The notes under the pieces were generated by a model. It searched no databases. It was not told where the DNA came from and worked only from the letters and a program-made list of their open reading frames with translations. From Chara braunii (taxonomy: Eukaryota > Plantae > Charophyceae): DNA of 64,000 nt. A program made the translations under genes and the position numbers. Positions within the stretch are counted from its first letter, which is position 1, and every line of letters starts with the position of its first letter. The stretch lies in assembly GCA_003427395.1 (NCBI GenBank), contig BFEA01000031.1, positions 74,003-138,002 of the forward strand, given 5' to 3'. Shown in pieces: positions 4,066-25,920 of the stretch.

Positions 4066-4066
4066 T

Positions 4067-6740: not shown

Positions 6741-6741
6741 A

Positions 6742-7245: not shown

Positions 7246-7399
7246 TAGAAGGCAACGTCCCGGCTGCCAAAAGTCATGAAGCCATGCTGAAAGCTGTGAA
7301 GGACGGGACGGGGCCGATCACTGGTCAACAAGTCTAAGGAGGAAGAGGGGTATAATGTAGGTGATAAGGCACAGGGTGTGGTGTTGGTGGGCTGTGAAC

Positions 7400-7585
7400 A
7401 GGGCTATCCTACTGGTGGGCTAAGGGTATTGCAGGGAAACAGGATAGTCCTATTGTTGTTCTACAAGGGTGAACAGGGGATAGGGTATTCCTACTGATGT
7501 TCTACAATGGGAAACTAGTAATAGGGTATTCCTATTGATGTTCTACAAGGGTGAACGGGGTATTTCTATTGAAATTCTACAAGGT
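7400..7585. repeat. Degenerate tandem repeat (GGGTATTCCTATTGATGTTCTACAAGG-like) in the 3' UTR of chromovirus C
   Basis: About five imperfect copies. Confidence 0.75.
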
Positions 7586-8339
7586 TATGGGTTGTCAGGG
7601 GATGAAAAATAAAATAAAAGAATTGTATGTTGCAGGTTCGAGGGCACAGTTCACATGTACAAGGGCTGGGGTGTCTGATGGGATCTTGGTACACAGTCTG
7701 AGGTCTGTAATGGGTCAAGGGGTCTGGGGGGGATCTTCAAGTGTCTTGATCAGCAGCAAGAAAGGGGTCTTCGGAGGTCTTGAGCAGGTCCCAAAGTAGG
7801 CAGCAAGGCGGTCTTCAGCGGCTGCGATAGGAGGTAGTCGTAGAGGTAGTCCAAAAGGCCAAAGCCGAAGTGATCAGGTGCGTCCGGTACATGATTAGCA
7901 ATGGAGTCTGATCCGGTAGCAAGGGAGTCGCAGACTGGTACATGGTTCATGTGACAAGTAGTTGCTCCAGGGAGTCTGCGAGGCAGGGTGTCAGCCGTTG
8001 TAGCAGCCTGGTGGCCAATCCAGCTGCATAATCTCCATGAACAGTGATGCAGCAAGCCATCGCCCTTGTGCGCATGCCATTAGATCCTTTATCGCCGGTC
8101 GTCACGCAGGTCCACCAACATTGGACGAGATGGACAAGGAAGTGGAGAGGACGAATGGGGCAAGGCTACGCGAGGAACAACGGGAAATCAGACATCGGTA
8201 AGTGGGTCAAGGGCAAGGGTGGTTGTGGCGGGGATGTGTGTAGCGCAAGGTGGCGAGGTTGTAGCAGGGTTTAAGCAAAGGTTCAGGGTTTAGTCAGGGT
8301 ATGGGCAGGGGGGATAGCAAGGATGCAGGGTGGGAACGA

Positions 8340-8597
8340 TCATAGGCACAGACAAGTCTCATGGCATTCTTAAGATTTTCAAGGGGTTCCTATATTGATT
8401 TTTCGTCAGGGTATCCGGTCCATTTGACTTTGTATTCAATGATTGGTTCCAGATGGTTTGCGACTTGGGTTGTTCTTCTTCCTATGATTGATTCGACTAT
8501 GAATTCTGGTCCAGTGGGAAGCATGATAGATGGAGGTCGAGGATATGGGCAATCAGCGAACTGAGGCGGGGATTCGTTGTCAGGCGGCCACAAGCAG
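8340..8597 (-). pseudogene. Chromodomain at an integrase C-terminus (chromovirus C remnant)
   Basis: EFIVESIIGRR...IEYKVKWTGYPDEKSI*EPLENLKNA. The conserved W codon has become TAG. Confidence 0.88.
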
Positions 8598-8599
8598 TG

Positions 8600-11500
8600 C
8601 GTCGCTTGAAATCTGCGGTTTTGGGGCTTAGGCTGAAAGGCAAGTCCGTGTTTTGACAGTACTCTGGTTCAACCGGGCAGCAAAAATTAGAGGAACTTTA
8701 AGCACCCTTGACTTTGGGCGCTGTGAACCTTACGAGTAGCCCTCAAAGATAGCGAGATGGGTAGAAGCACTCGGCTTATCTGGAGACCGTCATTTCCGGC
8801 CGTTCAGAGAGCTGGACCCGGATTGGCCTGCCGCAGAGAGGCATCGCGGGGACAGACCTCGCCGCAACGTTTTTGCAGCATACGACCGGGGTTGGAATGG
8901 GGCCCCGAATTTTTATCTATTTTAGTACCATAATTAGAGATGGGGGAAAAGGGATTAAGACCAGATAGGGAGAAGGGAAAAACATAATATCCCTTAATTT
9001 CCTTATTTTACACGGCATTTAAAACTAAGGGCGGGATACCCTTGTATTTTATGACCTCGGCAATGAATTTAAAAGCATAGAAAAAGACTAAAAATAGAAA
9101 AAAAGAAAAGAAACAAAAGAAATCCGGTTGTATATATATACTTTCTCGGAATGTAATTTTTGGGAATTTACGCTTGATTTACTTTTTCCAACAATAGAAT
9201 TGAGAAAAAGGAAGAATGATTAAGAACAATGAAAGGGACGGGAAATGATGACAATTGGGAGATGGGCCTAATTTCGCCTTGATTACCTGCCGTCAGCTCT
9301 GACCCCGGAAAGATCATTTTCTCTGGATTCTAACAGTTTTCACTACTGCCGATGGTCGAGATTCCCTACGTCGTTTTTCCTGATTTACTTGTTTACTAAT
9401 CTTACCAAAGATAGGGGGTTCCGAGAGCGAGACTCGCGTGGACAACATGAGGTGGTGCTACTTTGGACCGAAAGTATGGTACTTGGCTCGGTATGGGCAC
9501 ATGGTACGGAGAGGTTCTCTATATGGCTCGGTACCGGGCATATTTCTGGCCCAGCATGAGCTCGGCATCAGCATACTTCAGGTTTGGGGACACTATCGCG
9601 GTTTATTTTCAGGTCCGAGACGGCTACAACAGTTATTACAGCTTCGGCACCATTTGTTTCGGGTTCGGAACCACCACGGCAGTACATTCCAGGTTTGGCA
9701 CCAATACGGCCGTTCATTTCAGGTTCGGTACCGTTGCGGCTATCGAGTTAGATCCGGTACTAGCTCGTCGTCGGCTTGTCTCAGGCCCGGTATTGGTCCG
9801 GGGTCGGCATTGTACAACCTATTCAGGTCCAAAACGGGTACGGTATGCTGCACCGAGTGGGTTTGGTATTTTACTATTCCGGCTCCGATTTGGTATGGTG
9901 TGATGGCCACATTGGTTCGGTACTGTCGCTAGGACAGCATTGGTGCGGCAACCTCGGTCCACTATTGAGAGGGCCGGTAATGACCGCGGGTTCTAATTGA
10001 AACAGTGGCCGTGATGCGGCGCCGCGGGCTAGCGCTTATTTTCAAGCTCGGTACGACGTTGGAATTTCCCTGTGTGCCACTCTGATCTATTTCGAGGCAG
10101 CTGCGGTTTCGCCACGTTGGTTAGTGGCACAACACTAGCGAGTGGCACGTGGTCTGGACCTGCTAGGTCTATAGGCTGGACCTTACCTTGCAGTCGAGAC
10201 ACCAACCGCAGTGGGGACCGAGATGCTGGGGAGCTGAGGCAGGTCGGTTGGCCACAGGCTGCGGATATAGGAAGGGCAACTGGATACCGCTGGCCACTGT
10301 AACTCAGAATGGTTTAGGCTCGGAAAACTGGTTTGGACTCGTACGGTTATTGGTTAGGGATCGACACGTTGCTATATCAGAACGTTGAGGGTTGAGACCA
10401 TACTACCGCAGCCCAGCCTGGTTCGGCGTCACACATTCGATACTAGTCCGACAGGGTGCTGACTGGTCTTTGCTCTTTCCTTACTGGACCAGCGGCGGAA
10501 CTACGGATTGGGAAATAATCGAATACTAACAACGGTCTGCTTTATGGACCTTGGTTCGGGTACCAAAGCAAGAAGGCGCTCCTTTTTCACTACTTGTCAC
10601 ATACCTGAAGTCCTACTATCCCGGTTACAGAGGAGGGGATTGTCAAAGTTGGCTGTAGTGGCGCTCTCTTGAGGCTGCAGCCTTCGGTACCAAGGATATA
10701 GGCGAGCTCAGTGAGACTTGTAGGAGGGAGGGGATTCCACGCATGCAAGGCGTACGCCGCAGATCTGAACATTCGGGCAGAGAGGGAGTCAGCATGCACG
10801 GTGTACCCGGCGTTGTGCGCTGAGGTTGTTACAACGGGGGCGAGCAAGGTGAACCCGCGACCGAAAGCACGGGCCTGAAGCGTACGCACTCGAGCGGATA
10901 CTCCGCGTGTGAGAGGCGGTTGCAGCGGGAGCTGAGCACGTCGAGCTCAACGCTCGTGCACGGGGGCATCCGTTGTTACGTGAGTCTTCCATAGGGTAGC
11001 GCGCCAGGCATCCGCGGCCCACTTGAGCTCGGTTGGCTTACAAGCTTGGGGAACGGGAGGCGCTGTTGAGCGTTCTGGGATGTGCATCACGCGTGCGCCG
11101 CCTGCTGCAGTACGAGATTGGGCTCGCTCAACGGGTGCTCCTTGGGGAGACGCTCAGCGAGGGAAAGCAGGCATCAGGGAGCGGGACAGCTCGCCCGGTG
11201 TGCACAGTCCGTATCAGCGCTACTATCAGTGAGTGGTCCGAGACGAGCCGAGGGCGGCCGGAAAGACACGGCATTGGCGGAGGGAAGATGTCCCAGGTGC
11301 GGAGGAGACGACTGTGATGAGCGGGAGAGAATTTGGACGGAAGAGCTTCCCGCTGAAGTACAAGCGGGAGCTGCACAGTCCGCATCAGCCAAATGGAAGA
11401 GCGTGGAAGGCGCCCCCAACTTCCTGTGATGAACGTGGGACACTCGTATGAAGGCAGAAAACGGAACCCAGATACTCGCTTGGAGGTGAGAAATAGGCGG

Positions 11501-13130
11501 GGACGCATGACTGCGTTCTCCCTCAGCAAGAACATTCGGATAGGCGGGCAACGCACTCGGTGTAGACGCGCAGTTTCGAACTCCGAACCTCTAGGGAGAT
11601 CGAGGGCACGGCGCGTCTCGGGGTAGGCAACAGAGGGATCACCTCGAAAGGTGGAGTGCAGCGGGGCGGGAGATGTGCGGAACTAGCAACAAAGGAGAGG
11701 GAAGTTGGCGCGACAGACTGAAACTTTCTCTAACGGGACGCTCGGCGAAGTTGGACGTGGACAGAACTTGTTACCAGCTGTTACCATATGAAGAGATGAA
11801 CGCTCATCCCTGTTGTTGATGGCTCGAATTCTGGTGGCGAGATGATCTACCTTTCTTGTTGTTGACTGGACCAGCTTCCTTTCACACTACTTTTCCCGCC
11901 GAAGGGGGGGAGAGGCCTTATTTGCAATAGACGGGACACTTGCAGTTGACGAAGTGATCATCCGCTACGCTGTTTGCTTGGACAACCCTTTTTTTTTTTT
12001 TTTCCTTTTATCAGGTACGTGTGACTTTGCTCGATAATGGGCAACACCCAGAGCAGCCTAGGAAGGTTCGGTGCGTGAGAAACTCTTGAGGAAACGTGTC
12101 CGGGGAAGGAGAGAGAAGAGAGGGAGTAAGGGAGACTGTTCAGAGTGCGGGGGAAGGAACATCTTGACAGCGGGAGGTAGGGGAGTGTTTGTGCTGCATT
12201 TCTCCGGTGGTTCTGTGAGGACGAACGCTGGGTACTCAGTGACTAAGGCTCGCTCATAGGCGATACTTGAACCCGAACGTGGCCGGAAGCAACTCCTTCC
12301 CCGTCCTTTGGCCGCCTGATCAACCCAAAGACTCACTTTTCTTTTTGCTGAAACCGCTGTCTTCTGTTCAACGAACCAACCAAGGTCCACCAGTGAGAGA
12401 AAGCCGAGGGAGAGAGTGATCGAAAGGGGAAGAGGAAATGAGAAAGTTAGAGAGGGGAAGGACAGCGAGACGGGAAGTCCAGTGAAGTGCTTGGGGAAGG
12501 GAGATTGAGTAAGCGGAGGCGACGGAGAGGGAGAGTGGAGAAAGTAGCGGGCGAANGGGGGGGGGGGGGGGNCCCCCTTCGCTCTCATTTAATTACCCAG
12601 TTCGTCATTCCCAGCCCTACAATTATTTTATTGTTTAATTGTCAATTCAAATATTTCGTCATGTCCGGTGAATCAAGCATCTTTGTCGTCCAATGCAACT
12701 AACTGTTTCCAGTGATACAAGTCAAGTCTCAATTTGACGATGCACTTGATGATCGGTGCGCGAAAGCTTCGGATGTCTCGCTGTTGTTCCTCATCGTCCT
12801 TCAGGGCTAAGCCTTACTCAGCTTGCTGCAAATCTCACAGCACCTCTTACAAGCGCTTTGCCCGACTCTTTGCACTCACACTGGATTTTTGGACATAGAC
12901 CTGTGTCTGGCGAGTGGTCAGTGTTGTTGAGCATTGCGAAACAGACTGAGTTTCAGGCCGGGAGCACACATGCTCGGAATCCTCCCGGGTGGGAACTCAA
13001 ACAACCAAAGCAGATACTACTTTCCCCTTGCTGGTCGCTGAGGACCTCTGAAGCGAGGACCGTGAAGTGACAGGCATTGTACCCTCTGGCTTCAGCGACG
13101 AACAGGGGCCCCTCCCCGGGTTTCGCCACA
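8600..13130 (+). mobile_element. Putative long (>=4.5 kb) LTR of element E; 5' boundary not resolved
   Basis: Ends ...TTTCGCCACA, four bases before a PBS-like 18-mer, and is complementary to the PBS region. Non-coding, with degenerate CGGTAC/GGTTCGG repeats at 9440-10560. No second copy in the window. Confidence 0.55.
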
Positions 13131-13134
13131 ACTT

Positions 13135-13152
13135 TGGCGACCTTGCCGGGGA
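13135..13152 (+). promoter_or_regulatory. Primer-binding site TGGCGACCTTGCCGGGGA (tRNA-Arg/Asp-like, Ogre/Tat/Athila style)
   Basis: Starts TGG. Resembles Ogre TGGCGACTCYRCTGGGGA and Athila TGGCGCCGTTGCCGGGGA. Follows a CA-ending segment. Confidence 0.7.
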
Positions 13153-13200
13153 GGGGAGCAGCTTAGACGGGGCGAACGGAGGTGGATAGAGTCAAGAACG

Positions 13201-14683
13201 GTAAGTAACAGCAAAGAAAAAAGAAGTAAAACAAAAATTAAATATTTAATTTCTTTAAAAATTTCGTGTAAAATACCATAAAAAGGGTTTAAGAAAAAAT
13301 TTTCCGTCAAAGATTTTGCAAATTTTGAGTGAAGTTGACGGAAAAATTTTGGGACGGAATGAGTTTTGGAGGAGAGCGTGCGGTTCCGCAAGAACCTCCC
13401 AAAACCCTAGTTAGTTAAACCCTAATTAGGGGAAACCCTAGTTAGGGAAGACTTATTCAAGGTTTTTGAGTCGGATAACAACCTCAAGGAAGAAAGATAA
13501 TATATGTGAAATATTTTGCCTTTTGTATTCTTCGGCATTTTCCCTTTTTTGTATAATTAATTTAAAGAAAATACTAAAAATAGGTGAAAAGAGTTAATTA
13601 AATTTTATTTTAATTCTAAAAATTCTGATGTCTTTTCTTTGAGGTTGTTGAGCTACGGGCGGAAGCTCCAAACCCCATCCCCACGGGAGGAGGGGAAATA
13701 CTGCCCAATTTTCTTGAAATTTTGTGTAATATTTCCAATTAATTAGGAAATAATTAGAGAAAATACTCGAAAAATTATTAAAATTCAATATTTTCTTTTG
13801 ATATTTTTTTCCTTTTGCTACACTCCTGCGGCGGCTGCTTTGAGGCCTTCGGCCACACCCCATCCCCACGGGGGGAGGCGAAGTGCTGCCGGATTTTTCG
13901 GGGACCCATGTGATAAAACAATTTTTGCCTAAAGACATACACAAGGGGCGTAAGTGTATGTATCTTACGTAAGCGAATTTTTTGTAAATTAAATACAGTT
14001 AAATACAGGAAAATCCCAAGGAAGGAAAAGGAGGAGGATATTGGAGTAGAAAGAGTTTAGGGTTGACCCCTCACCCCCTCTTAAGAGTTGGGGCCAGTGA
14101 AGGGAATTTTTCCTAATTAAAATTTATTTATTTAGTATTTATACAATAAAATTTCAAAATAAATAATTAGCGATTGGCAGAAAGCGAAACGCACTTGCCG
14201 CGCTACTCTCTAGGGGAAGCCTTGCATGCCTCTAGGCAGTGGTCGAGGGCCAGTAGGTTTCTAGAAGACAAAAGTAATTTTTAATAATTTAAATTCATTA
14301 AAATTTCCTAAAAATATAAAAATGGCTTAGAAAAATAGAGGCAAGAAGGTTATGGCCTTTTAATTTTTGTACTTAGTTAGAGGGTAACATTTGTATACCT
14401 GAGGGGTGATCGGAGCAGCCGCAGGCAGCGTTCCCTCGAACAAAGCACACACCTTATATTCGAGGGAACTTGACTAGAGGGCTTGTTGCTTTGTTTAGGG
14501 TCGGGACTCCGCCCTTTAGCACCGTACGGGACACTAGCGATAGTTAAGAGATAGATCGACATCGTAATATCGGGGCTCCCAATGAAGGGAAGCGAAGCAC
14601 TGCCGAAATTTTCTTAGGAACAACAGTCTTCTCCTGCTACCTTTCACCTTCTCTACCCATCTCTCTTACTACGTTCTCTCTAG
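13201..14683 (+). other. Predicted leader intron of element E
   Basis: Perfect donor ACG|GTAAGT at 13201, AT-rich body, long polypyrimidine tract 14628-14681, AG at 14682-83 (alternative 14689-90), ATG at 14695. Confidence 0.6.
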
Positions 14684-14694
14684 TCGTTAGTTGG

Positions 14695-15711
14695 ATGTGG
14701 CCGCAAGCGCAAGTAGAGGTCTATGAGGCCACCATCGACAGGAACTGGAAGCCCCCTGAACTCATAGAAGGGGATCTGGTGGAGCTGACGATCCCCGGGC
14801 GCAGCGTTCGATACGTTGACGACCAGTTTGCGTGGAGGTCCATAGTCTTGTCTGCAGACGTGTGGCTTTGGACGCATAGAGAGCAACAGCCTGGACAGGG
14901 AGTGGGCGTAGTGAGAGCCTACTTGTTCTTGGGACCGAACGCGGTCAGGGAGGCTGTGGTGGGCCTCGCGACGACTGGGACTAGTGGCGCGATTAGCAGG
15001 GCGTTACGCTACCTGAGGGATGAGGTAGCCGCCTTCCGAGCGGAGGACTCGAGCGACCCGTTGACCCTATTTCACGGTCGCCCTCCTCTTGATATCACGG
15101 GCGAGCTGGTGGTAGCACGGGACCGGTTTTTCCCGTACAGCGTTCGGAGTCTGCGGGCGATAGTTCCGGCGTTCGTAGTAGAGAGCGTCTTTGGAGGAAT
15201 TGGTGGAGTGGTCGAGGCATACCTAGCCTATCAGGATCTCAAGATCTTGGCGAGAAGGCCTGACGACCTCGACTACATCTATTATTCGCTCGCGACCGGT
15301 GGGCCTCGTCGGGGAGACGAGAGGGTGCAACTTATAGAGTTGATCTGGTTGATAGACGATGAGCGGCCCCAGTCTCCGTACGTTTGGGATTGGCTGGACC
15401 GTGAGCTCTGTGCAGGCCCCGAGTACGTGACCTGCATCGGGCGGCTCTTCTCAGACGACTGGGGGAGCTGGTGGAGTGAGGACGCCGGGCGACCTCTGAT
15501 ATACGGCCATCAGCTGGCAGAGTACTACCAGGCTATAGGGCAAGCGTCATACCACGTCGAGGACGAGTTTGACGACGAGGGTTGGGAGCGAGATGACGAC
15601 GAGGACGCCTGGGAGCTAGACTGGGTCGACCCAGAGAGTGAGGTTGACGAGGAGGAGATCGACTTTACGGACACCCATTTCCCCAGGATAGGAGTAGCAG
15701 TCCGAGCATAG
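14695..15711 (+). CDS. Unknown protein ORF-A (338 aa), paralogue 1, acidic Trp-rich tail
   Basis: Uninterrupted ORF with protein-like composition. Shares blocks with ORF-B and ORF-C (WRSIVLSADVWLWT; FFPY...VPAFVVESVFG; IYYSLATGGP). Confidence 0.8.
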   Translation: MWPQAQVEVYEATIDRNWKPPELIEGDLVELTIPGRSVRYVDDQFAWRSIVLSADVWLWTHREQQPGQGVGVVRAYLFLGPNAVREAVVGLATTGTSGAISRALRYLRDEVAAFRAEDSSDPLTLFHGRPPLDITGELVVARDRFFPYSVRSLRAIVPAFVVESVFGGIGGVVEAYLAYQDLKILARRPDDLDYIYYSLATGGPRRGDERVQLIELIWLIDDERPQSPYVWDWLDRELCAGPEYVTCIGRLFSDDWGSWWSEDAGRPLIYGHQLAEYYQAIGQASYHVEDEFDDEGWERDDDEDAWELDWVDPESEVDEEEIDFTDTHFPRIGVAVRA

Positions 15712-15712
15712 G

Positions 15713-16891
15713 ATGCAGAGGAGCGCATTGGGACGACGGTTGAGTGAGCTTAGCATCAGATATCCACCGATAGCGGAGAGCGGATCGATGGTAGAGCAGG
15801 CCAGTAGGGTGGAGCTTGAGATCGACGACACCAAATGGCCTAGACCCTAAGAGACAGTAGCGCCACGCAGGGTGGCGCTAGATCTGCCGGCCAGAGGGGT
15901 TTCCGCGGATGCGATAGAGAGCCGATGGTCATCGACGGTGTTGGCCCCAGACGTGCACTTGTGGACGTACGTCTTAGAGTCCTTCGAGCTGGACAGTTAG
16001 GGGTGGCGACGACCTGGCACGACTAGTATAGAGGTAGTGGGGCACATTTACTACGCGCCAGAGGTGCTAGCTACTGTCTATTATCACGGCCTCGTACATG
16101 ATCATTGGCGAGAGGAGCAGAGCGCGAGGAGGATCTTGCTGGCTCGAGCGAACTTCGCGCGCGGCGAGATAGAGCGGCTGCACGGGGACGTTCGGAGAGT
16201 GACGACGACCTTCAGGATTGGAGGACACTTCCCATATCCTAGCAGTCAACTACGTGTGACACTTCCGTGCTTTGTGGCAGAGGAGCTTTGGGGACTTAGG
16301 CGTCTGGGTGAGATCTACTTTGCGGCTCTTGACTTGGACGACCTCTGCCGAGGGTACACTGACAGGGATTGGGTGTTGTATGCGCAGTTTGTAGCAGGGC
16401 CGCTTGTAGGCGAGCGAGGACTCCAACTGATTGTGTTCCTGCGGGCCATTGTACCTACCGGGAGCCCTGACCTATACTCTCTGTACCAGCCCCTAGCCTT
16501 CTGGACGACACTAGAGAGAGAGGCTCGGAGGCCTGCAGATCATTTAGCTGGAGTAGGACAGCTGTTAGCCGAGACCCGTGAGGAGAGGCCGGGCCATCTC
16601 ATCTCGACCGGGGAGGTTGAGGAGTACTACCGGCAAGTATATCCAGAGGCTGGCGATATAGCATGGTACGCTGAGGATCGGGATTGGGAGGACTTCGATG
16701 ACTTAGACCCTTGAGACGACCAGGACGAGGGCTGGGGAGATCTGGCGCGGGTCGAGGGACAGGAGCAGGTAGGTGGAGAGGCGCCGCAGGAGAACGGCTG
16801 GGGGCATCTCCTTCAGGCCGAGGGACAGGAGGATATCCCGTGGGGCCAGAGGGTAGATGAGGAAATAGATGAGGATATGTCGGATGCGTGA
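15713..16891 (+). pseudogene. Unknown protein ORF-B, paralogue 2, three premature stops
   Basis: Same frame as track ORF 16037-16714. Read-through of TAA 15848, TAG 15998 and TGA 16712 restores full-length similarity to ORF-A (WSSTVLAPDVHLWT; HFPY...LPCFVAEELWG) and an acidic tail with DEGWGD, NGWGH, PWG. Confidence 0.8.
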
Positions 16892-17213
16892 GACGACTAG
16901 AGGCAGGGCATATCCGAGTGAGGCTTAGAGAAGGGAGTAGTGGAGAGATGGTAAGAAGATATCTTTAGGCAAGACTAGAGTGGCAGTAAGAGCAGGAAAG
17001 GATGACAGACGAAGCATGCCCTGGAGATATGTAGACGCCAGAAGTACGTCGAGTTCACTATCTACTTCCATAGAGCTGATGGGAGAGTTCATAGTACCTA
17101 CTCGGCCATACTAGATCTGACCGGGAGAGTTGTCTGAGGAGTTAGCAGCATCGTGAGATAAGGTGCATCGGAAGGAGTAGACTGATATAGATAGAGAGTT
17201 GGAGGGGAGATGA
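16884..17213 (+). pseudogene. Possible decayed small ORF-X (~110 codons)
   Basis: ATG overlaps the ORF-B stop and the final TGA overlaps the ORF-C ATG. Several internal TAG/TGA stops, so support is positional only. Confidence 0.35.
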
Positions 17214-17965
17214 GGAGTGACACAGTAGCCTGTTTAGCTTATGTTCTCTCACGAGAGTCCGAATCCTATAGCGTGAGGAAACTTGTGAGACCCAGAGAGA
17301 CGGCTGTTGGATACGACATTCCTCTTCCTGTGGCGTTAGAGGGGACAGGCTGTATTCCAATACGTTACCTGGTAACGTGGCTGGCAGAGGGACTTTTCCT
17401 TTGGACAATTATACTGAGGGATGGACGACTCGAAAGGACTCATGATCTAGAAGGCGTGGGACATCTGATAGCAGATAGAGCACACGATTTAGAGGTAGGA
17501 CTGACACTCGGAGGGGCAAGCAGGGCTTGGTGGAAAAGCGAGTTATTGGCCAGAGTGATTGTTAATCAGCAACTGGCGAGACTCTCAGGAGGAAGGACCT
17601 ATTGGAGTCGCTTGGTATACAGGCCTCCTCATCCGACCCTCTACCCGAGGGAGGGTTGGCGATTTGGACTTCCTACGTTCGTAATAGGGCAGATCTATGG
17701 GAGCATAGATCGTCTGAGTAGAGCAGTGGACCACACATTCTACGCACATTGGGAGGGCTTAGCTCCCCGTTTCAGGGAAGTATACTACGCCATTTGTGTG
17801 AGGTGGGGACCACCCCGCAGAGAGACGTTAGATGACATCATAGACATTACTAGCTGGGTGGACTGTCTGAGGTCAGTCGATCTGATCAGGTACTGCAGGA
17901 GACGAGCGAAGATTGATTACGTGGGGATAGAGGATGTGAGATTTCTCTTCGAGCTCGTCGCATAG
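17210..17965 (+). CDS. Unknown protein ORF-C (251 aa), paralogue 3
   Basis: Uninterrupted. TWLAEGLFLWT, GVGHLI, YP...LPTFVIGQIYG and VYYA...GPPRRE align with ORF-A and ORF-B. Confidence 0.78.
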   Translation: MRSDTVACLAYVLSRESESYSVRKLVRPRETAVGYDIPLPVALEGTGCIPIRYLVTWLAEGLFLWTIILRDGRLERTHDLEGVGHLIADRAHDLEVGLTLGGASRAWWKSELLARVIVNQQLARLSGGRTYWSRLVYRPPHPTLYPREGWRFGLPTFVIGQIYGSIDRLSRAVDHTFYAHWEGLAPRFREVYYAICVRWGPPRRETLDDIIDITSWVDCLRSVDLIRYCRRRAKIDYVGIEDVRFLFELVA

Positions 17966-17968
17966 GGA

Positions 17969-18601
17969 ATGCCGGGGAGGACGGCTACTGCGGTGCGCAT
18001 AGATAAGCAACTGGTAAGCACAGGGTACACTGTGACGGTACTTCTCCGAGCATACATAGATGAGGACTTGACGGCGAGGGAGTGTCGGCTACGGGCCAGG
18101 GATTTGATCCATGAGCATAGAGGCGATGTGCTGGAATAGGTGACCTTCCAGACCTCGATTTCCTATGATGTGATAATATGGTCTCATGGTTATATGCGCG
18201 TGGAGTACTACCACGATGAGGCGGAAGCAGAGGTTAGAGCAAGGATACGAGGATGAGCTGGAAGGAGATGTGGACTGAGTATGGAAGAGGAGAGTGAGGC
18301 GGTCAGAAGAGTGAGAAAGCGCATTAAAGAACCACTCTTGAACCAGGTAAAGGAGTTAGGGAACAAGATAAGGGAGAACGGGTCGTGCCAGGATGAGGGC
18401 AGACTGCGTAGGGTTGAGGTCGTGACGAGAGGGTTAGAGAGTATGTTCAAGGAGGAAAGGGAGATTATCCAGGCGTGAAAATCAGACTTTCTAGAGAGAG
18501 TAAAGGCTAGGACCGTATCACGTGAAGGAACTGGGGAGAAGTCTGCAGAGGGCGTCACAATGGAGGACAAGGTAACGCAGAAAGGTAGCGATGGGACATG
18601 A
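17969..18601 (+). pseudogene. Unknown ORF-D with a charged/coiled-coil-like C-terminal half, three premature stops
   Basis: ATG three bases after the ORF-C stop. In frame with track ORF 18281-18478. Terminal TGA overlaps the ORF-E ATG. Confidence 0.55.
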
Positions 18602-18918
18602 GCGGGACAACACTACACACGACGGACCGGTACTCATTGCATGTGGTAGGACGACTGGACGGACCGTTGGTGTTAGTGATCGTAGAGTTCCAGCTCCATA
18701 CCGGATTATGCATAGTTGAGGAGGCAGAGTACGTTCGCCGTGCGTTGCGTGAGGCTAGGGGAACAGGACTTTGGATTGGAGTGGAAGGAGGACGAAGGAT
18801 AAAATACGTACTTCGAGTAACACCTTTCGAAGGGCGGTCACGGATAAGGGCGTGGTACGAGACGATCAGAGAGGCTGAGAGGTTGAAGATAAGTGAAGCC
18901 AGGAGAGCTGGGAGCTAG
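18598..18918 (+). CDS. Unknown ORF-E (106 aa)
   Basis: Uninterrupted, protein-like, ATGA overlap with ORF-D. Confidence 0.6.
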   Translation: MSGTTLHTTDRYSLHVVGRLDGPLVLVIVEFQLHTGLCIVEEAEYVRRALREARGTGLWIGVEGGRRIKYVLRVTPFEGRSRIRAWYETIREAERLKISEARRAGS

Positions 18919-18929
18919 GGAAAGATATA

Positions 18930-19149
18930 GTGAACGGAGCAATACTTAGGGTCCTAGCAGCTCACGATGAATACTGGAGGGAATCGATAAAGACCTTGGA
19001 GGCCATAGAGGAGAAAGGAGATGAGGAAGATTTTGAGGCATTCTATGATATATTGGAGTTGTCGGCAATGAGATTGCGAGCGGCTATAGCACTGACTTCC
19101 CTCAGATGCTAGATAGAGGACCTTAAAGTTGTCTGGGGGTAAAAGGAGG
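18930..19149 (+). pseudogene. Unknown ORF-F remnant, cut by the junction at 19150
   Basis: Helical-looking 60-aa track ORF beginning 11 nt after ORF-E. The frame appears to continue through stops to the junction. Confidence 0.4.
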
Positions 19150-19414
19150 AACATTGGTTGGGCTAGTCATTAGCATTCTAGCATTCTGCTTCGCTATCTT
19201 ATACTACGTGAATGAGGTCAGTCCCGGTCAGGTCAGGATTTGTATCTAAGTCTTCCCTGCGCTATTCAGCACCATTTTGTATGTATTAGAATGCACATTG
19301 CTTGTTGAGATTCTACTTGCACTTCATTGTCCATTCAATCCTTTTCATCACATTGCGGATCCTCGGTTTCTATGTACATCGCCCAACTGGGCATGTAACA
19401 GTTGGTATCGGAAC
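19150..19414 (+). mobile_element. Truncated 5' LTR (19150-19400) and tRNA-iMet PBS (19403-19414) of chromovirus B
   Basis: Near-identical to 26974-27224. Ends CATGTAACA, followed by GT-TGGTATCGGAAC (cf. TGGTATCAGAGC). Confidence 0.93.
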
Positions 19415-20175
19415 ACCGCATTTGAATCAGGACAACCTGATCTGACATGTGTGCGGGGACTAAGTAGGTGATTAGTCTTGATAGATTGATTAGACCACAC
19501 TAGTTAGCCCCCAAAATCACGATTTTGACCTTACTGCTGAAAATTGATTTTTTTTTTCTTTTCTTGGATTTGTTTTCTCGCTATTTCTGTTGTGGAAAAA
19601 CGCAATAGCGCAACATCTGAAATTTCCATTTTTGTTTTTCTTTTGAAAATTCGAAATTTCATTGTTGAAAATCCGGAATATCTTTCTTTTCGAAAATTTT
19701 GATTTCCTGTTGCATTTCCCGTTATTTAAAAATCCGGAATACTTTTCTTCCGAAATTCGTTTTTCTGAAAACAGTACGGGAAATCCCTCCTGCAGGTATT
19801 ATTTTCTAAACTGCGAATACTCTCATCTGACTCATCTGAGTAAGTCCGAATATTTGATTTCTTTTCGGAATTGTTTTTCGCAGTTCTAGGATTCTGTTAG
19901 TCAGTACCATAAATCATTTGTAGTCTGAAGTCGAAATTTTGTCTCTGATTGATCATTTCGCACTTCAAAGGAGGTTGGGAGACCTATGAACTTGCAATAT
20001 TTGGGATTTTTATTATTTCGAAATTTTTTTGCAAAGTTCGAACTTTTCTTTTTTGATTAGTGGCTCTTTATCTGGGCGATTCTCCCCACCCACCCTCCAC
20101 ACTAATGTTATTGCCCCGTCTGGCCTTACCTTCTCTATCTATCTCTGGATACCCCCTACAGTGGCATTGGTAAGT

Positions 20176-20315
20176 TGCCACGTCAGCAGGCCATGTCAGC
20201 AGGCCATGTCAGCAAACTACGTCAGCACGCCACCAGACTACGTCAGCAGGCCACGTCAGCAAACACTGCCAGACAACAGTGCCACGTCAGCAGCAGGGAA
20301 TACCACGTCAGCAGG
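20176..20315 (+). repeat. Tandem GCCACGTCAGCA repeats in the 5' UTR of chromovirus B
   Basis: About eight imperfect copies. Confidence 0.85.
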
Positions 20316-20357
20316 CCCCCGGCCTGGTCTATGCTGTTGCGTTCACAAATAGCCGTC

Positions 20358-21861
20358 ATGGACCAGAGGTCCGGAGAAGCAGATGAGGCCTATTACGCCC
20401 GGATGCTGGCCTGGAGTACCGAAACAAAGAGACGGGCGGATGACGCAGCAACAATAGCGAAGAAGAAGGCAGAGGACGCCGAGCAGGCACGTCTGCTGGC
20501 ACTTGAACAAAAGCGCCAGCACGACGAGGCAGCAGCAAAGGCTGCTGATGAAGAACGAGTTCAACGGCGGGAGAAGATATTTAGCGGAGAGCGAACATTA
20601 CTCACAATGACAGTTGAATGGCGGACCGAGGCCGAGAATGGTAAGATGGAGGATAGCGAGAATAAGATCGCTCTACTCCTCTCCCATCTCACAGACCTCC
20701 TGGCGACATGTATTATACAGCAGGAGGACATCCACAACCTCGACGACTCGCTGGCTCAAGTCCGGCCGCCTCCGGCAGTTGGAGCAGCGACCCGTCATTG
20801 TCCCCGATGCAATCTCTTCCAACACCTCCGATCGCCTCGAAGCATTGGAGATGGACATCGGCTCCCTTAAGGACGGCATGCAGTTACAGCAGACCGCAAC
20901 GCAACAGTTGGAACAGCAGATCTGTACTACCGCCAACAACTCGAGTTCAGAACCGCGCGAGACAACTCCAAAGTTTGACGGGCAGGAGATCTTCTGCGAC
21001 TCGACGAAGAAAAATCCGATATCATGGTTCCACAAGTTCGAGCTCACGCTGCAGCTTCACTACGTCAAAGAACACAAGCACCACGCGTACTTATATTCCC
21101 GGTCGTGGGGCACGTGCCAGGCATGGTTGGACAATCTCTTGTCCAAGTACGGAGTGGTAGTTGCCGACTTGCACACCAAGATCAGTTGGGATGATCTGAA
21201 GGCGGCGTGGCACAAGCGGTTCCAAGTCGAGCCGCCAGAGATCAAGGGATTCAAGGCTATGGACAAGCTCATGGTCTTTGAACAAGGCACGCTGCCGAGT
21301 ACCGACTGGATTGCCGAGTACCAACGCTTGACATCAGTCCCAGACATCCAGATGGGCTTCAAAGCCATCCGCCACTATTTCATCTCAAGGTCGTGTCCGA
21401 CATTAAGCAATGCCCTGACTCATGTCGAGGACACCTTGACGACAACGGCGGAACTCTTTGACAAGGCCGCACAGATCATCATTACGAACAAGGAGGCTAA
21501 GAACCTGCGTTCGTCTGTGGCAGGCCCGAGCAGAGACCAGCATCAGCCAAGAGTGGTCGTGGTCACAGCGGCAACGCCGTTGACCAAACTAGTGAGGCCG
21601 TGTCTACCAATGAAGGGGACAGACTCGCAGTTGTCCGGGAAGGTGGCCGCCCCGGCAAAGGCCGAGGACGCAGCAAGACGAAGACAAGCACCGCATCTAG
21701 TTCCGGGCCCAGTGCAACAGCTCCAACCCCATGGTCTTAATACGGCATCTCCGAGCAAGCATTCAAGGCGCGCACGAGATTCCAGTATTGCCTATGGTGC
21801 GATAGCGATCTTCATGAGACACTGGCCTGCCCATTGAAAGGCGTGGGCAAACAGGGAAACT
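20358..21861 (+). pseudogene. gag: Gag of chromovirus B (frameshifted)
   Basis: Coiled-coil N-terminus, SWDDLKAAWHKRF retrotransposon-gag motif, CCHC knuckle CLWCDSDLHETLAC at 21789-21830. Confidence 0.9.
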
Positions 21862-24800
21862 GAGCACCGCCGAGAGTGACTCGGCGACACTCTCGACTCC
21901 TCCGGAACCGGTTTCTTCGCGAGTGACCGACCTTCATTTTGAGGCGCATGCGGAAGTCGATAGTCCTCCTCTTCTGTATTCTTTTGAGGACTATGCTTCC
22001 CGACTCATTCCTACGCTGGCTACTCAAGCTCAAGGACAAGACGTGTGTGCGATATCTTCTCCGTCCGGCAGCGGCGACGTATCGTCTTCAAGTGGTTCTT
22101 CACGTGATTTGGCGCGCGAGTTCAACATAGAGGTATTGGACCCGCTAATGTCCGAGGACTTCACCTGGCTTCCTCTCCAGACCACGGGCCGCTTGCCGGG
22201 ACCACAATGCGTAGCACTATGCGCTCATCTCCACACATACTTATCCCTCTATGCACCACCAACTTCGCCGACGGATGACGAAGTTGCGGTGGGGGACATC
22301 CTTGCGTATGTTACCAAGGTGGCCCGCGAGTTTCGCACGCAGCGGTACGATGACAACAACGCACCACTCATGTATGTCCGCACCCAGGTTGGGCAAGCAT
22401 CCTGCGGCGCTTTGCTGGATAGCGGCACACCTCGCAACTTCATGAGCCAAGCCTTTATGCAAAGGGTTGACCGTGGCGCACGAGTTTGGAGGAAGGCAAA
22501 CCAGACAGCGATCAAGTTGGCGGATGGAAAGACGCAGCAACTTCTCGACTGTTACATCGAGGCCATACCGGTGTATTTCGCACCTCATGCATGTGAACCG
22601 GTGACGTTCGACATTTTGAACACGGACTTCGACATCATTCTCGGAATGCCTTGGCTTGCAAGTGCGGATCACACAGTCAACTTCCACCGGCGGACTCTTA
22701 GCGTTCGCGACGCCTTCGGCGCCGAAGTGGCGTGTATTATTCCTCTATTGCACCCTTCGATTTGGTGTTAAGCGGTGACGGCCAAATCATTCCGGGTGAC
22801 TTGCGCTTACGAGCAGGCCGAGGAGATCGGCCTATGTTTCCTATGGACCGTCGTGGTAGCCGACTCTTCACCCACGGACTTGTCTTTGGACCCCCGGGTG
22901 GTGCGGTTGCTTGACGGGTTCGCCGACATCTTCGAGTCACCTACCGGTGTGTGCCGGATCGGCCGATCTCTCACGAGATCATTCTTGAGGTCGTTGCCGT
23001 GCCGCCGAAAGGTTGCATCTATCGGATGAGCGAGGAGGAGCTTGAGGTCCTCCGCGCACAACTCGACGATTTGTTGGCCAAGGTCTGAATCCGCCCTAGT
23101 AGCACCCCATATGGAGCACCAGTCCTCTTCGTCCGGAAGAAGAACAAGGATCTACGATTGTGTATCGACTACCGCAAGCTCAACACGCAAACCATCAAGA
23201 ATGTGGGGCCTCTTCCTCGCATCGACGATCTTCTTGAGCGATTGGGCGGCGCAAAGTATTTTTTTAAGTTGGATTTGAAATCGGGATATCATCAAATCTC
23301 GATCTGACTGAATGATCGCTACAAATCCGCGTTCAAGACGCGGTACAAGCATTTTGAGTGGGTGGTCATGCCTTTTGGCCTCCCCAACGCCCCGGCGACC
23401 TTTCAAGCGGCAATGACCAACGAGTTCCGTGCAATGTTGGACCGGTTCGTGCTGGTCTACTTAGACGATATTCTCGTCTATAGCCGGACATTGGAGGATC
23501 ATCTTGGGCATCTTTGACGAGTGTTGGAGACGCTCCGCCGCGCCAAGTACAAGGCCAACCGCGACAAGTGCAAATTTGTCCGGCAAGAGCTGGAATGCTT
23601 AGGCCATTTTGTCACACCGGAGGGCATCAGGCCGCTATCGGACAAGATTCAAGCCATCCAAGAATGGTCGGAGCCTCGGAACGTCACGGATGTCCGTTCG
23701 TTCCTTGGCCTCGTCGGCTACTATCAGCGTTTCATCAAAGGCTACTCGAAGATCGCGGCCCACTTGACCAAACTTCAATGCGAGGATCGGCCGTTTGACT
23801 TCGGAGAGGAGGCGCGGGAATCATTGTTAGCTCTCAAAGCCGCGCTATTATCTGCGGAGGTCTTGCGCATATACGACCCGCTTTTGCCTACTCGCATTAT
23901 GACGGATGCGTCCGGCTATGGCATTGGTGTCGTCCTCGAGCAACATGATGGTGTGGACTGGCACCCTGTCGAGTATTTCAGCAAGAAAGTGCCCGCCTTG
24001 CATTCCATTGACGATGCACGCAAGAAGGAGCTCCTCGCCTTCGTCCACGCGCTCAAGCAGTGGCGGCACTTCCTCCTTGGTCGAAGCCAATTCCGATGGG
24101 TAACGGACACAATTCGTTGGTCTTCTATAAGACCCAAGACACCATCAACAACACCATCGCTCGATGGATGACTTTCATTGACCAGTTCGACTTCTTTCCC
24201 GACCACATTCCCGGGAAGTCGAACCATTTTGCGGATGCTCTTTCACGGCGTCCGGATCACTGTACCGTGGTCTACTCAACCTTCGAGATCGACGACGACT
24301 TGCAGAACAGCTTCATCCGCGACTACCAAGTCAACCCCGAGTTTCACGATAAGTACGCGAGTTGCTCCTCTCCTAATCCGGCGGCTTCTCACTGCCGGAT
24401 CCAAGAGGGGTATTTGCTTGTCCACACACAGGGGAAGGACCTTTTTTGTGTACCGAGTGATCCTTACTTGCGTACACGGCTTCTTGGTGAGTTCCACGAT
24501 GCTCCTACCACCGGACACTTTGGAGTCAATCGCACGATTGGCCGACTTCGCGAGCGATTTTGGTGCTCCGGACTTCTCGGCAACGTCACACGCGATTGCG
24601 AGTCATGCGAGGTTTGCCGACGCTGCAAATCCCGCAACCATCATCCGTAAGGCGAGTTACGACCATTACCGGTCTCGTTGAGGCGAAGGGAAGCGATTGC
24701 CATGGACATTACCGACCCATTCCCCAAGCACAAGACCGGAGTGGATGGGATTCTCACGGTGGTTCATATCCGATTTTTCGTTGGCCCTCATCAAGCGATG

Positions 24801-25830
24801 AGACTCATCTCTCAAGCCCAGTTCAGCTCGCCTCCCTCAGACCAATGGCCAAACGGAGAGGGCGCACCAGACCGCACAGGTTCTCCTTCGCACTCTCATC
24901 CGTCTTGACCAGAAGGACTGGGTTGAGCGACTGTCGGATGTTGAGTTGGCCTACAACTCCGACCGCGATACTCGGTTCATGTCCGATTTTTGGTTGGCCC
25001 TCATCAAGCGATGGGGCTCATCTCTCAAGCCCAATTCAGCTCGCCACCCTCAGACCGATGGCCAAACGGAGAGGGCGCACCAGACCGCACAGGTTCTCCT
25101 TCGCACTCCCATCCGTCCTGACCAGAAGGACTGGGTTGAGCGGCTGTCGGATGTCGAGTTGGCCTACAACTCCTCCATCCACCCGGCTATCGGGATATCG
25201 CCCTTCCAGTTCGAGCATGGCTCGCCGGTCACTTCGCCGTTGGACATCATCACTCCACGAACGACCGAGAGCGACGACCATCTGTTTTTCTTGCTTTAGA
25301 TGCAAGAGCTACTTGTCAAGGCACGCGACCAGATGGCCAAGACGCAGCAACGCATGAGCCAGCAAGCCAATCGCCAGCGTCTTCCTTGCCTATTCCGCGC
25401 CGGCGATCTCGTTTGGGTCTCCGCCGCGGAATTCAGGCTTGAACAAGATATCTCTCGCAAGCACCTCCCGAAATGGATGGGGCCTCTTCCGATCGTAGCA
25501 CCCGCTGGAGACACACTCGAGGGACCTTCCTTCACGATTCAGGTGCCAGCCCACTTGCCCGTCTACCCAGTCTTTCATTGCTCCAAGTTGGCTCTTTACA
25601 GGCCAGCGGAACATGACAATTTTCTCGGGAGACGTTCGCAAGACCCACCCTCTATGGACGGTTTTCAGGAGGTCGGCGACATCATCTCCCAGCAACGCTA
25701 CGGCAACGGCCAACCGAGTATTTGGTGCATTTTGCATACTGCACACACCAAGCTGACCGTTGGTTGACCCGTGCGGAACTTCAAGCAACAGCTCCAGACA
25801 TTCTCGCATGATACGAACGCAAGATGCAAG
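21862..25830 (+). pseudogene. pol: Pol of chromovirus B (PR-RT-RH-INT-chromodomain), degenerate
   Basis: ALLDSG, YLDDIL, TDASGYGIG, GHFG...C..C, HPQTDGQTER, VFHCSKL. Multiple stops and frameshifts. Same family as element A. Confidence 0.95.
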
Positions 25831-25920
25831 GCAAGCCGGTCTCTTCGGCTCCACGCCACGCCCATGTCCAGGTTCCACCTTCAGATCGTCGGCTTCGCCC
25901 TCGCCCCGGCTTGACTTCAT

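What the first reader, a model, noticed from the sequence alone, without database searches (positions are those of the whole stretch)
14695..17965. Three anciently diverged paralogues of an unrecognised protein family
ORF-A, reconstructed ORF-B and ORF-C share ordered motifs: L(S/A)xx(V/L)xLWT; V(V)GH; (F/L)(H/S)G; Y...(L/V)PxFVxxx(F/W/Y)G; Y...GP. No DNA-level repeat is apparent, which points to old duplication and retention under selection. Diversified tandem paralogues in a mobile element suggest host-conflict effectors (inference).
Basis: seen in the sequence. Interest (0 to 1): 0.75.

Follow-up and report, generated by a model that had tools for sequence, protein, structure and literature searches.

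The report
Orphan retrotransposon accessory protein triplet
Three neighbouring genes in a high-copy repeat of the alga Chara braunii encode old, diverged copies of a protein family seen in no other organism; they are likely accessory proteins of a Ty3/gypsy retrotransposon rather than host genes, and the middle one is broken in this copy.

Summary
ORF-A (14695-15711) is intact. ORF-B (15788-16891) lies in one frame with three in-frame stops. ORF-C (17210-17965) is intact. All three are colinear paralogues.

- **A versus B:** clear homology (BLASTP 4e-12).
- **C:** weak against A. It links through the window's B (Smith-Waterman z 9.7) and through an intermediate domain in P0023 (z 7.9), which itself matches A and B (z 7-9).
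- **Family range:** no Pfam, PDB or fold assignment. A profile search of 1.84 billion representatives gave 12 hits, 11 from Chara braunii.
- **Repeat context:** DNA word depth over A, C and the stretch after C is hundreds to thousands of times the flank. B is about 10-40 times rarer.
- **Retrotransposon link:** nine chimeric Chara gene models join the domain to other sequence, eight of them to Ty3/gypsy gag, protease, RT or integrase parts. The domain comes first in five of the nine.
- **ORF-B's stops:** other genomic copies read sense codons there, so B is broken only in this copy.

Best reading: lineage-restricted accessory ORFs of an LTR retrotransposon, comparable to rice Retrosat2 ORF0. 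A and B carry acidic, Trp-rich tails. B's tail has repeated GWG units, so host-factor binding (perhaps Argonaute) is a speculative mechanism. Interest is moderate to low.

The parts
13069..14694 (+). Stretch upstream of ORF-A. It is part of repeated DNA, but whether it belongs to the same unit is not shown. It is AT-rich with GC islands and holds a 15-nt telomere-like triple repeat at 13402-13449.
   Evidence: DNA word depth rises from 26 (12573-12820) to 2,100-14,700 (13069-14060), then falls to 630-750 (14061-14556). Sequence; repeats. No PBS-like site or LTR pair found.
14695..15711 (+). ORF-A: intact, 338 aa plus TAG. It has an alpha/beta domain (about residues 20-255) and an acidic Trp-rich tail. 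pI 4.3.
   Evidence: Chara braunii copies at 80-86% identity. AF2 pLDDT is 52-82 for residues 45-145 and under 50 for 239-338.
15788..16891 (+). ORF-B: 367 codons plus TGA, a paralogue of A (26-29% identity). In this copy it is broken by three in-frame stops: TAA 15848-50, TAG 15998-16000, TGA 16712-14.
   Evidence: Gapless 85% alignment to the intact Chara protein P0015, which has Pro, Gln and Trp at the three stops. All other genomic contigs read C,C at 15848/9 and C at 15998.
16721..16858 (+). Tandem units in ORF-B's tail: two clear 66-nt-spaced copies plus a weaker third. Each of the two clear units encodes a GWG motif in an acidic setting.
   Evidence: copies at 76% and 60% identity. DNA contigs that skip exactly 66 bases here show that unit number varies among copies. 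Tail sequence.
17210..17965 (+). ORF-C: intact, 251 aa plus stop. It is the most diverged paralogue, basic (pI 8.8), with no acidic tail.
   Evidence: Homology tests. Copies elsewhere: P0006 C-terminal part at 77% and P0020 N-terminal part at 47%.
17966..19149 (+). Degenerate coding stretch 'D'. It continues in ORF-C's frame to about 18620 with four stops, then shifts frame twice. It is not a member of the A/B/C family. It ends in a purine run (GGGGGTAAAAGGAGG) where a separate gypsy element begins.
   Evidence: three-frame reading. 17999-18247 matches P0018 residues 243-322 at 36%, E 2e-7. The family HMM finds nothing here. Depth 10,700-19,300.

Best explanation
ORF-A, ORF-B and ORF-C are three anciently diverged paralogues of a protein family found only in Chara braunii. 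They sit in high-copy repeated DNA and are likely the accessory (non-gag, non-pol) genes of a Ty3/gypsy LTR retrotransposon lineage.

Shown:
- the paralogy;
- the restriction of detectable relatives to Chara;
- the repetitiveness of the block;
- low-level transcription of family copies;
- that ORF-B is a private pseudogene in this copy.

Inferred from chimeric gene models elsewhere in the genome:
- the block is carried by Ty3/gypsy elements, probably upstream of gag-pol.

Predicted, not tested:
- each protein is a non-enzymatic alpha/beta domain of about 235 residues;
- A and B add a disordered, strongly acidic, Trp-rich tail, and B's tail holds repeated GWG units;
- that tail would bind a host factor on the element's behalf, the leading candidate being Argonaute through GW/WG hooks;
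- C, which is basic and has no tail, would be a partner or variant module.

This particular locus is a decaying copy and probably does nothing for the host.
For: Paralogy.

Chara-only range:
- Word-index searches found 3 and 5 relatives, all named Chara braunii.
- The profile search of 1.84 billion representatives gave 12 hits at E<=1e-3.
- 8 of the 9 hits looked up are Chara braunii. The other three were already named as Chara.

Repeat nature (80% likeness; the tool warns that depth is not copy number):
- flank: 26
- ORF-A bins: 6,465-49,742
- ORF-B region: 810-1,372
- ORF-C bins: 6,690-14,372
- D: 10,669-19,310

Retrotransposon link:
- Nine chimeric Chara gene models contain the domain.
- In P0010, P0014, P0018, P0020 and P0022 it precedes gag (CCHC), protease, RT/RNase H or integrase parts.
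- In P0012, P0013 and P0023 it follows pol pieces. P0011 has an unassigned N-terminal part.
- The gag/protease parts of P0010 and P0014 match the window's own minus-strand gypsy (57110-55281) at 59-79%.

Selection at family level:
- Intact members at 27-53% identity to A (P0016, P0017, P0019) keep the motifs.
- P0023 may carry an A/B-like piece followed by a C-like domain, hinting that the tandem layout recurs in a second lineage. Only the C-like domain (residues 940-1087) was scored. The A/B-like piece was read by eye from the sequence, and P0023 is a predicted gene model.

Tails:
- pI 4.05; Trp 6-7%.
- 6 GW/WG dipeptides (four Trp sites) in B's last 83 residues.
- 66-nt repeat units whose number varies among copies.
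- AF2 pLDDT under 50 for residues 239-338.

Transcription: run X6 gives RNA reads over A and C/D at 80% likeness, far fewer over B.
Against: - The window shows no LTR pair, PBS or gag-pol belonging to the block. Its 3' side is cut at 19150 by a separate gypsy element, and nothing downstream of 27223 continues it.
- The link to gypsy rests on predicted gene models, which can splice across nested repeats. Three of the nine place the domain after pol pieces.
- The related gypsy in this window (54-59 kb) carries no family domain.
- Depth is uneven. A's last two-thirds is several-fold deeper than its first third, and B is 10-40 times rarer. The block may therefore be a mosaic of separately amplified pieces.
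- RNA depth roughly follows DNA depth and comes from both mate orientations, so it may be background transcription.
- Only B has a dense GW/WG cluster. A has two such dipeptides and C's two are not in a tail.
- The AF2 model is poor (mean pLDDT 50.9), so 'non-enzymatic' rests mainly on the lack of conserved catalytic-looking motifs.
Confidence: 0.5

Rival explanations
1. The proteins are structural or targeting add-ons of Gag: an N-terminal extension or auxiliary particle protein, functionally like a retroviral matrix domain. They would work in particle assembly or trafficking rather than in host conflict.
For: P0022 places a family domain in one model with gag (CCHC), RNase H and integrase. 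P0014 and P0018 join A-like sequence directly to the mid-gag segment. The family is multi-copy and co-oriented with gag-pol in 5 of 9 chimeric models.
Against: - In the window, A, B and C are separate ORFs with their own ATG and stop codons.
- There is no Pfam gag/capsid match, no zinc knuckle and no basic nucleic-acid-binding stretch in A or B (pI 4.3-4.6).
- The related gypsy at 54-59 kb has a normal capsid-like gag without the domain.
Confidence: 0.2
2. The block does not belong to a gypsy element. It would be a different or composite repeat, for example a non-autonomous element, a DNA transposon cargo or an old viral insertion, that merely lies next to gypsy copies in a genome full of nested insertions.
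For: - No termini were found in the window.
- Depth differs sharply between sub-segments.
- Three gene models start within A at residues 85-97, after unrelated pieces.
- The junction with the LTR at 19150 is an insertion boundary.
Against: - The domain is joined to gag, protease or pol of two diverged gypsy lineages in eight separate gene models (all nine except P0011), five with the same order.
- No transposase, helicase or viral hallmark was found by Pfam in the block or its flanks.
Confidence: 0.15
3. The ORFs are a captured host or foreign gene that was duplicated and then amplified passively. They would have no role in the element's life cycle.
For: Transduction of genes by LTR retrotransposons is described (PMC7264820, abstract read). 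In this copy ORF-B is dead.
Against: - No non-repeat homologue appeared in Chara or in any other organism among 1.84 billion representatives.
- The review cited above notes that transduced genes occur in one or a few copies, whereas these are high-copy.
- Diverged subfamilies keep intact, colinear ORFs.
Confidence: 0.1
4. The domain is a cryptic GNAT-like acyltransferase.
For: About 20 of the 50 listed VIA-align rows, and several of the top Foldseek rows, are GNAT acetyltransferases aligned to model residues 28-138.
Against: - The best Z is 4.6 and the best Foldseek E is 0.17, both below the tools' stated noise levels, and the model has mean pLDDT 50.9.
- The acetyl-CoA-binding motif as I recall it (Q/R-x-x-G-x-G/A after strand 4) is not conserved in the family alignment.
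Confidence: 0.04

Closest known systems
ORF0 of rice Retrosat2 / RIRE3 / RIRE8 (Ty3/gypsy); PMC3485330, abstract and ORF0 passages read
   Same: An extra ORF upstream of gag-pol in a high-copy gypsy family. It is restricted to one host lineage, evolves much faster than pol, has no assigned function and is unrelated to known domains.
   Different: - No sequence relation was tested or is expected.
- Here there are three tandem paralogues plus a fourth unrelated degenerate ORF, not one ORF.
- The position inside an element is inferred from gene models, not seen in the window.
- Two of the paralogues carry acidic Trp-rich tails.
Additional ORFs (aORFs) of plant LTR retrotransposons in general; PMC7264820, abstract and introduction read. 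The Ogre ORF1 upstream of gag is recalled, seen only in a search listing.
   Same: Conserved non-gag, non-pol ORFs present in many copies of a family, on the sense strand, with functions mostly unknown.
   Different: The review says aORFs lie most often between pol and the 3' LTR. This family appears before gag-pol in 5 of 9 chimeric models. It is a tandem paralogue array and occurs in a charophyte alga rather than a land plant.
GW/WG 'Argonaute-hook' proteins, e.g. the P1 silencing suppressor of sweet potato mild mottle virus; PMC2904775, title and start of abstract seen in a listing
   Same: Several GW/WG motifs sit in an acidic, probably disordered stretch of a protein made by a genomic parasite. 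In B the motifs lie in short tandem units whose number varies between copies.
   Different: Binding to Argonaute is untested. Only B has a dense cluster, and A has two such dipeptides. The folded domain has no relation to any known suppressor. No transposon-encoded example turned up in my searches.
GNAT acetyltransferase fold
   Same: A weak, recurrent structural resemblance: a three- or four-stranded sheet followed by helices (model residues 28-138).
   Different: The scores are within noise (Z 4.6; Foldseek E 0.17). The cofactor-binding motif is not conserved, and the model has low confidence.

Membership tests
Additional ORFs (aORF) of LTR retrotransposons | Lies inside an element, between its two LTRs | tested here: inconclusive
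   No LTR pair, PBS or gag-pol belonging to the block is in the window. The 3' side is interrupted at 19150 by another element.
Additional ORFs (aORF) of LTR retrotransposons | Present in many copies of the family, not in one or a few as with transduced genes | tested here: met
   DNA word depth over A, C and D is hundreds to thousands of times the flank, and over B tens of times. Eleven Chara gene models carry the domain.
Additional ORFs (aORF) of LTR retrotransposons | Same-strand linkage to gag-pol of a defined lineage | tested here: inconclusive
   5 of 9 chimeric gene models place the domain before gag, protease or pol, and 3 of 9 after pol pieces. These are predictions, not verified element structures.
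Gag / capsid / nucleocapsid (Pfam Retrotrans_gag, Ty3_capsid, zf-CCHC) | Profile match to a capsid family, or a CCHC zinc knuckle | tested here: not met
   Pfam gave no gag, capsid or zinc-knuckle match for A, the window's B fragment (P0002), C, intact B (P0015), P0016 or P0019 at E<=1. Only chance-level DUF rows appeared. No CCHC pattern is present: A has 2 Cys and B has 3.
Retroviral-type Env | Signal peptide and transmembrane anchor | tested here: inconclusive
   Only a hydropathy scan was run. A's most hydrophobic 19-mer (mean 1.89) is the conserved motif AIVPAFVVESVFGGIGGVV, which has an acidic residue in its middle. B and C peak at 1.26 and 1.49. No signal-peptide predictor was available.
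GNAT acetyltransferases | GNAT fold | tested here: inconclusive
   VIA-align best Z 4.6 (rmsd 3.1, 76 residues aligned). Foldseek best E 0.17. The model's mean pLDDT is 50.9.
GNAT acetyltransferases | Conserved acetyl-CoA-binding motif Q/R-x-x-G-x-G/A (motif recalled, not from a call) | tested here: not met
   No such conserved pattern follows the third strand in the nine-sequence alignment.
GW/WG Argonaute-hook proteins | Several GW/WG motifs in a disordered, small-residue or acidic context | tested here: met
   Met for B only: four Trp sites (PWG, GWG, GWG, PWG) within about 45 residues of a tail with pI 4.05. A has two GW/WG dipeptides in its tail. C has none in a tail. A's tail has pLDDT under 50.
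GW/WG Argonaute-hook proteins | Trp-dependent binding to an Argonaute PIWI domain | not testable with these tools
   Needs a binding assay.

The most novel reading that the evidence does not exclude
The A and B proteins are retrotransposon-encoded Argonaute decoys. Their acidic GW/WG tails, which expand by 66-nt tandem units, would hook Chara Argonautes and blunt small-RNA silencing. This would be a transposon-borne counterpart of viral silencing suppressors in the lineage close to land plants.
Probability: 0.1. Interest if true: 0.8.

Novelty: new variant of a known kind. Interest (0 to 1): 0.35.

Why it matters
Chara braunii has a very large, repeat-dominated genome (size recalled, not from a call). 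What its retrotransposons carry beyond gag-pol is essentially undescribed. My literature searches found no paper on this family.

The family is orphan, highly amplified and moderately transcribed, and it has kept diverged paralogue types. That suggests a function that helps the element spread.

If the Trp-rich acidic tails bind a host factor, this would give a handle on how retrotransposons escaped control in a streptophyte alga.

If not, the practical value is for annotation. At least eleven 'hypothetical protein' gene models in the Chara proteome are pieces of this repeat and should be masked.

Tried and rejected
- **Family and structure searches found nothing usable.** Pfam on A, B, C, the D pieces and diverged members gave no real match. 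A PDB sequence profile gave one hit at E 0.21. The ESM Atlas gave no usable hit for A and scores of 0.75-0.78 for C.
- **Structure prediction was weak.** AF2 on A with 4 sequences gave pLDDT 37.5 and was unusable. With 9 sequences it gave 50.9. Foldseek against PDB and BFVD had no match at E<=1e-3. VIA-align wide had no Z of 5 or more.
- **Complex prediction** on the A domain with C returned no verdict, with the partner's fold uncertain. This says nothing either way.
- **The look-up of sequencing runs** listed no RNA holder. RNA evidence comes only from the laid raw reads.
- **No spliced RNA reads** were listed over the block, so the gene-model 'introns' that join A to C or to gag have no support from these runs.
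- **Searches for the block's own termini failed.** Self-BLAST, word-7 BLASTN and TBLASTX against the rest of the window gave nothing. A PBS motif scan found only the neighbour's PBS at 19403. No tRNA genes were found. Inverted and direct repeats were only short AT-rich matches.
- **No fourth family domain** exists in D or anywhere else in the window (six-frame HMM).
- **No internal duplication** within the domain (z 1.7 or less).
- **CpG observed/expected** is 0.62-0.99 over the block, with no clear depletion.
- **hhalign** between A/B-type and C-type profiles stayed weak (P 0.0097 and 0.032). C's membership rests on the pairwise and shuffle tests instead.
- **Earlier notes of this scan:** none for this genome or sequence.
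- **Whole genome:** not held. Element boundaries and dN/dS among copies could therefore not be computed.
- **Long GC-rich ORFs at 30-37 kb** read as low-complexity sequence and have no Pfam match.
Full report
**What the window is**

The window is nuclear DNA of Chara braunii or a very close relative. ORF-A's product finds three 'hypothetical protein CBR_g...' entries of Chara braunii at 80-83% identity and nothing else.

The window is crowded with Ty3/gypsy retrotransposon remains. There is pol with a chromodomain on the minus strand at 725-4038. A complete plus-strand element lies at 19150-27223. A minus-strand gag-protease-RT lies at 54232-58499. A 12.6-kb element is bounded by 914-bp LTRs at 38653-51265.

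**The observation**

- ORF-A (14695-15711, 338 aa) and ORF-C (17210-17965, 251 aa) are intact.
- ORF-B needs no frameshift. It is a single frame, 15788-16891 (367 codons), interrupted by TAA at 15848, TAG at 15998 and TGA at 16712.
- ORF-B aligns without a gap, at 85% identity, to an intact 367-aa Chara protein, P0015. That protein has Pro, Gln and Trp at those three places.
- Public DNA contigs of the same organism read C,C at 15848/15849 (10 contigs) and C at 15998 (13 contigs), with no contig supporting the window's letters. At least two of the three stops are therefore private to this copy.
- Under local base composition, the chance that frames of 338 and 251 codons stay open is about 3e-8 and 3e-6.

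**Are the three related?**

A and B clearly are. BLASTP gives 4e-12. tblastn gives 2.4e-12 over A residues 15-290.

C is much further away, and the tests disagree:

| Test | Result |
|---|---|
| BLASTP C vs A / C vs B | 0.061 / 0.010 |
| hhalign, two profile pairs | P 0.0097 / 0.032 |
| 7-member A/B-type HMM vs C | 2.9 bits |
| 4-sequence HMM without C | 8.2 bits vs shuffle maximum 5.4 (0 of 2000) |
| 9-member HMM without C | 8.8 bits vs shuffle maximum 6.6 (0 of 5000); second C copy 5.0 bits |
| Smith-Waterman C vs window's B | z 9.7, 0 of 1000, 142-residue colinear alignment |
| Smith-Waterman C vs intact B (P0015) | z 2.9 |
| Smith-Waterman C vs A | z 1.9 |
| Smith-Waterman C vs P0023 residues 940-1087 | z 7.9 |
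| P0023 domain vs A, B, P0016, P0017, P0019 | z 4.7-9.1, 0 of 1000 each |

The best bridge is the domain at the C-terminus of the Chara model P0023. It matches both C and the A/B-type members.

The motif order is the same in all three, and they share position and strand. On that basis I take C as a member, at roughly 80% confidence.

A maximum-likelihood tree puts branches of 1.3 and 2.15 changes per site on the B and C clades. Copies of one type differ by only 0.02-0.17 (long branches, so the topology is unsure). The duplications are far older than the amplification. No DNA-level repeat links the ORFs.

**How wide is the family?**

- A profile of A, B and C was scored against 1.84 billion representative proteins. 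It gave 12 hits at E<=1e-3.
- Of the nine hits I looked up, eight are Chara braunii. One (P0021, a metagenome protein matched in eight short stretches) looks spurious. The other three were already named as Chara.
- Members at 27-53% identity to A (P0016, P0017, P0018, P0019) keep the motifs and, where complete, an open frame.
- Pfam, a PDB sequence profile and the ESM Atlas give nothing.

**Genomic nature**

DNA contigs of one run were laid on 12573-20000 at 80% likeness. Summed word depth by segment:

| Segment | Depth |
|---|---|
| Left flank | 26 |
| 13069-14060 | 2,100-14,700 |
| 14061-14556 | 630-750 |
| ORF-A | 6,465-49,742 |
| ORF-B region | 810-1,372 |
| ORF-C | 6,690-14,372 |
| Stretch after C | 10,669-19,310 |
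| Neighbouring LTR | 78,000-131,000 |

- The tool warns that depth is not copy number, but the contrast with the flank shows the whole block is repeated DNA.
- The full layout with B is much rarer than A, C or D alone.
- A's last two-thirds is several-fold deeper than its first third. Three gene models begin in A at residues 85-97. I cannot explain this.
- RNA reads of run X6 cover A and C/D at depths of about 10-40 (both mate orientations summed), and B at 1-3, at 80% likeness. Runs X5 and X7 gave almost nothing over the ORFs at 92%.
- No spliced RNA read was listed.

**Which element?**

The window does not show it. The block has no LTR pair, PBS or gag-pol of its own.

At 19150 it abuts the 5' LTR of a separate, complete gypsy element. 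That element has 250-bp LTRs at 97.6% identity and a PBS at 19403. Many other contigs and RNA reads crossing that LTR start carry the element's own internal 3' sequence instead. That is what a 3' LTR junction would show. It does not establish how common the window's own junction is, since reads that match the window there would not appear as loose ends.

The evidence for a gypsy host comes from elsewhere in the genome. Nine Chara gene models join the family domain to other sequence:

- **Domain first:** P0010 (A, then protease); P0014 (A, then RD-rich gag with CCHC, then protease); P0018 (A-like, then a mid-gag segment, then a D-like segment); P0020 (C-like, then RT/RNase H); P0022 (domain, then gag with CCHC, RNase H and integrase).
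- **Domain after pol pieces:** P0012, P0013, P0023.
- **Unassigned N-terminal part:** P0011.

The gag/protease parts of P0010 and P0014 match the window's minus-strand gypsy at 59-79%. That element itself lacks the domain.

By eye, P0023 also seems to carry an A/B-like piece before its C-like domain. If so, a tandem of two paralogue types would recur in a second, diverged lineage. Only the C-like domain was scored, and P0023 is a predicted model.

Gene models can splice across nested repeats, so this is inference, not proof.

**What the proteins look like**

- A and B are very acidic (pI 4.3 and 4.6) and Trp-rich (about 4%). C is basic (pI 8.8).
- AF2 with nine sequences gives mean pLDDT 50.9. 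The core (residues 45-145) reaches 52-82 and consists of three or four strands followed by helices. The tail (239-338) is below 50.
- Fold searches give nothing above noise: Foldseek best E 0.17 and VIA-align best Z 4.6. Many GNAT acetyltransferases appear among the weak rows.
- The GNAT cofactor motif, as I recall it, is not conserved in the family alignment.
- The last 99 residues of A and the last 83 of B have pI 4.05 and 6-7% Trp.
- B's tail holds PWG, GWG, GWG and PWG within about 45 residues. The two GWG motifs lie in 66-nt tandem units. Some genomic copies lack exactly one unit (contigs that skip 66 bases).

**Interpretation**

The best-supported reading is a lineage-restricted set of accessory ORFs of an LTR retrotransposon.

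The closest described case is ORF0 of rice Retrosat2, RIRE3 and RIRE8. That is an extra, fast-evolving ORF of unknown function upstream of gag-pol (PMC3485330, abstract and ORF0 passages read). It falls within the wider class of additional ORFs reviewed in PMC7264820 (abstract and introduction read).

On mechanism I commit, with low confidence, to a non-enzymatic host-factor-binding role carried by the acidic Trp-rich tails. Argonaute binding through GW/WG motifs is the most concrete candidate. The analogy is to viral suppressors such as SPMMV P1 (PMC2904775, listing only).

My searches found no transposon-encoded example. They cover only the held library and cannot show that none is in print.

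The rivals are a Gag-associated structural module, a different or composite repeat, passively carried captured genes, and a cryptic GNAT-like enzyme.

**Verdict**

- Its 'mobile element' context is supported.
- Its 'host-conflict effector' idea remains untested.
- This locus is a decaying copy, with B broken and the stretch after C degenerate.
- The family is new as a protein family, but it belongs to a known kind of thing, so interest is moderate to low.

Noticed in passing
window 19150-27223: A complete plus-strand Ty3/gypsy element. It has 250-bp LTRs (19150-19399 and 26974-27223, 97.6% identical) and a PBS, TGGTATCGGAAC, at 19403. It carries protease, RNase H and integrase. Three oddities: the stretch just before the 3' LTR is not purine-rich, the 5-bp flanks (GGAGG and GCTGG) do not match as a target-site duplication, and a purine run (GGGGGTAAAAGGAGG) lies just before the 5' LTR.
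   Followed up: partly
window 14940-15796: The last two-thirds of ORF-A has several-fold higher DNA depth than its first third. It is about 40 times deeper than ORF-B, which starts right after it. Three Chara gene models begin in A at residues 85-97. This may be a separately amplified sub-repeat. Unexplained.
   Followed up: partly
window 54232-58499 (minus strand): A gypsy gag-protease-RT whose gag and protease are 59-79% identical to those fused to A-like sequence in other loci. The element itself has no family domain. Its gag starts with an (RE)n run encoded by a microsatellite (58295-58447) that also occurs at 1-107 and 36084-36166.
   Followed up: partly
window 38653-39566 and 50352-51265: A 914-bp direct repeat pair (91.6% identical) bounds a 12.6-kb element with no long ORF. 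Part of its interior (42715-45155) matches window 4067-6559 in inverted orientation at 79-86%.
   Followed up: no
window 13402-13449: Three tandem copies of a 15-nt unit, AAACCCTAGTTAGGG, which contains plant telomere-like heptamers. They sit inside the high-copy AT-rich stretch upstream of ORF-A.
   Followed up: no
window 17999-18247: The degenerate stretch after ORF-C is conserved at protein level (36% over 83 residues) with the end of Chara model P0018. In P0018 that part follows an A-like part and a mid-gag-like segment. A fourth, unrelated ORF therefore probably belongs to the same unit.
   Followed up: partly
window 30340-36987: A GC-rich stretch (55-59% GC) with long open frames on both strands. 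They read as low-complexity sequence (poly-Pro, SL repeats) and have no Pfam match, so they are probably not genes.
   Followed up: partly
window 38020-38395: A degenerate short-period array with 8- and 12-nt spacing, just upstream of the 38653 LTR.
   Followed up: no
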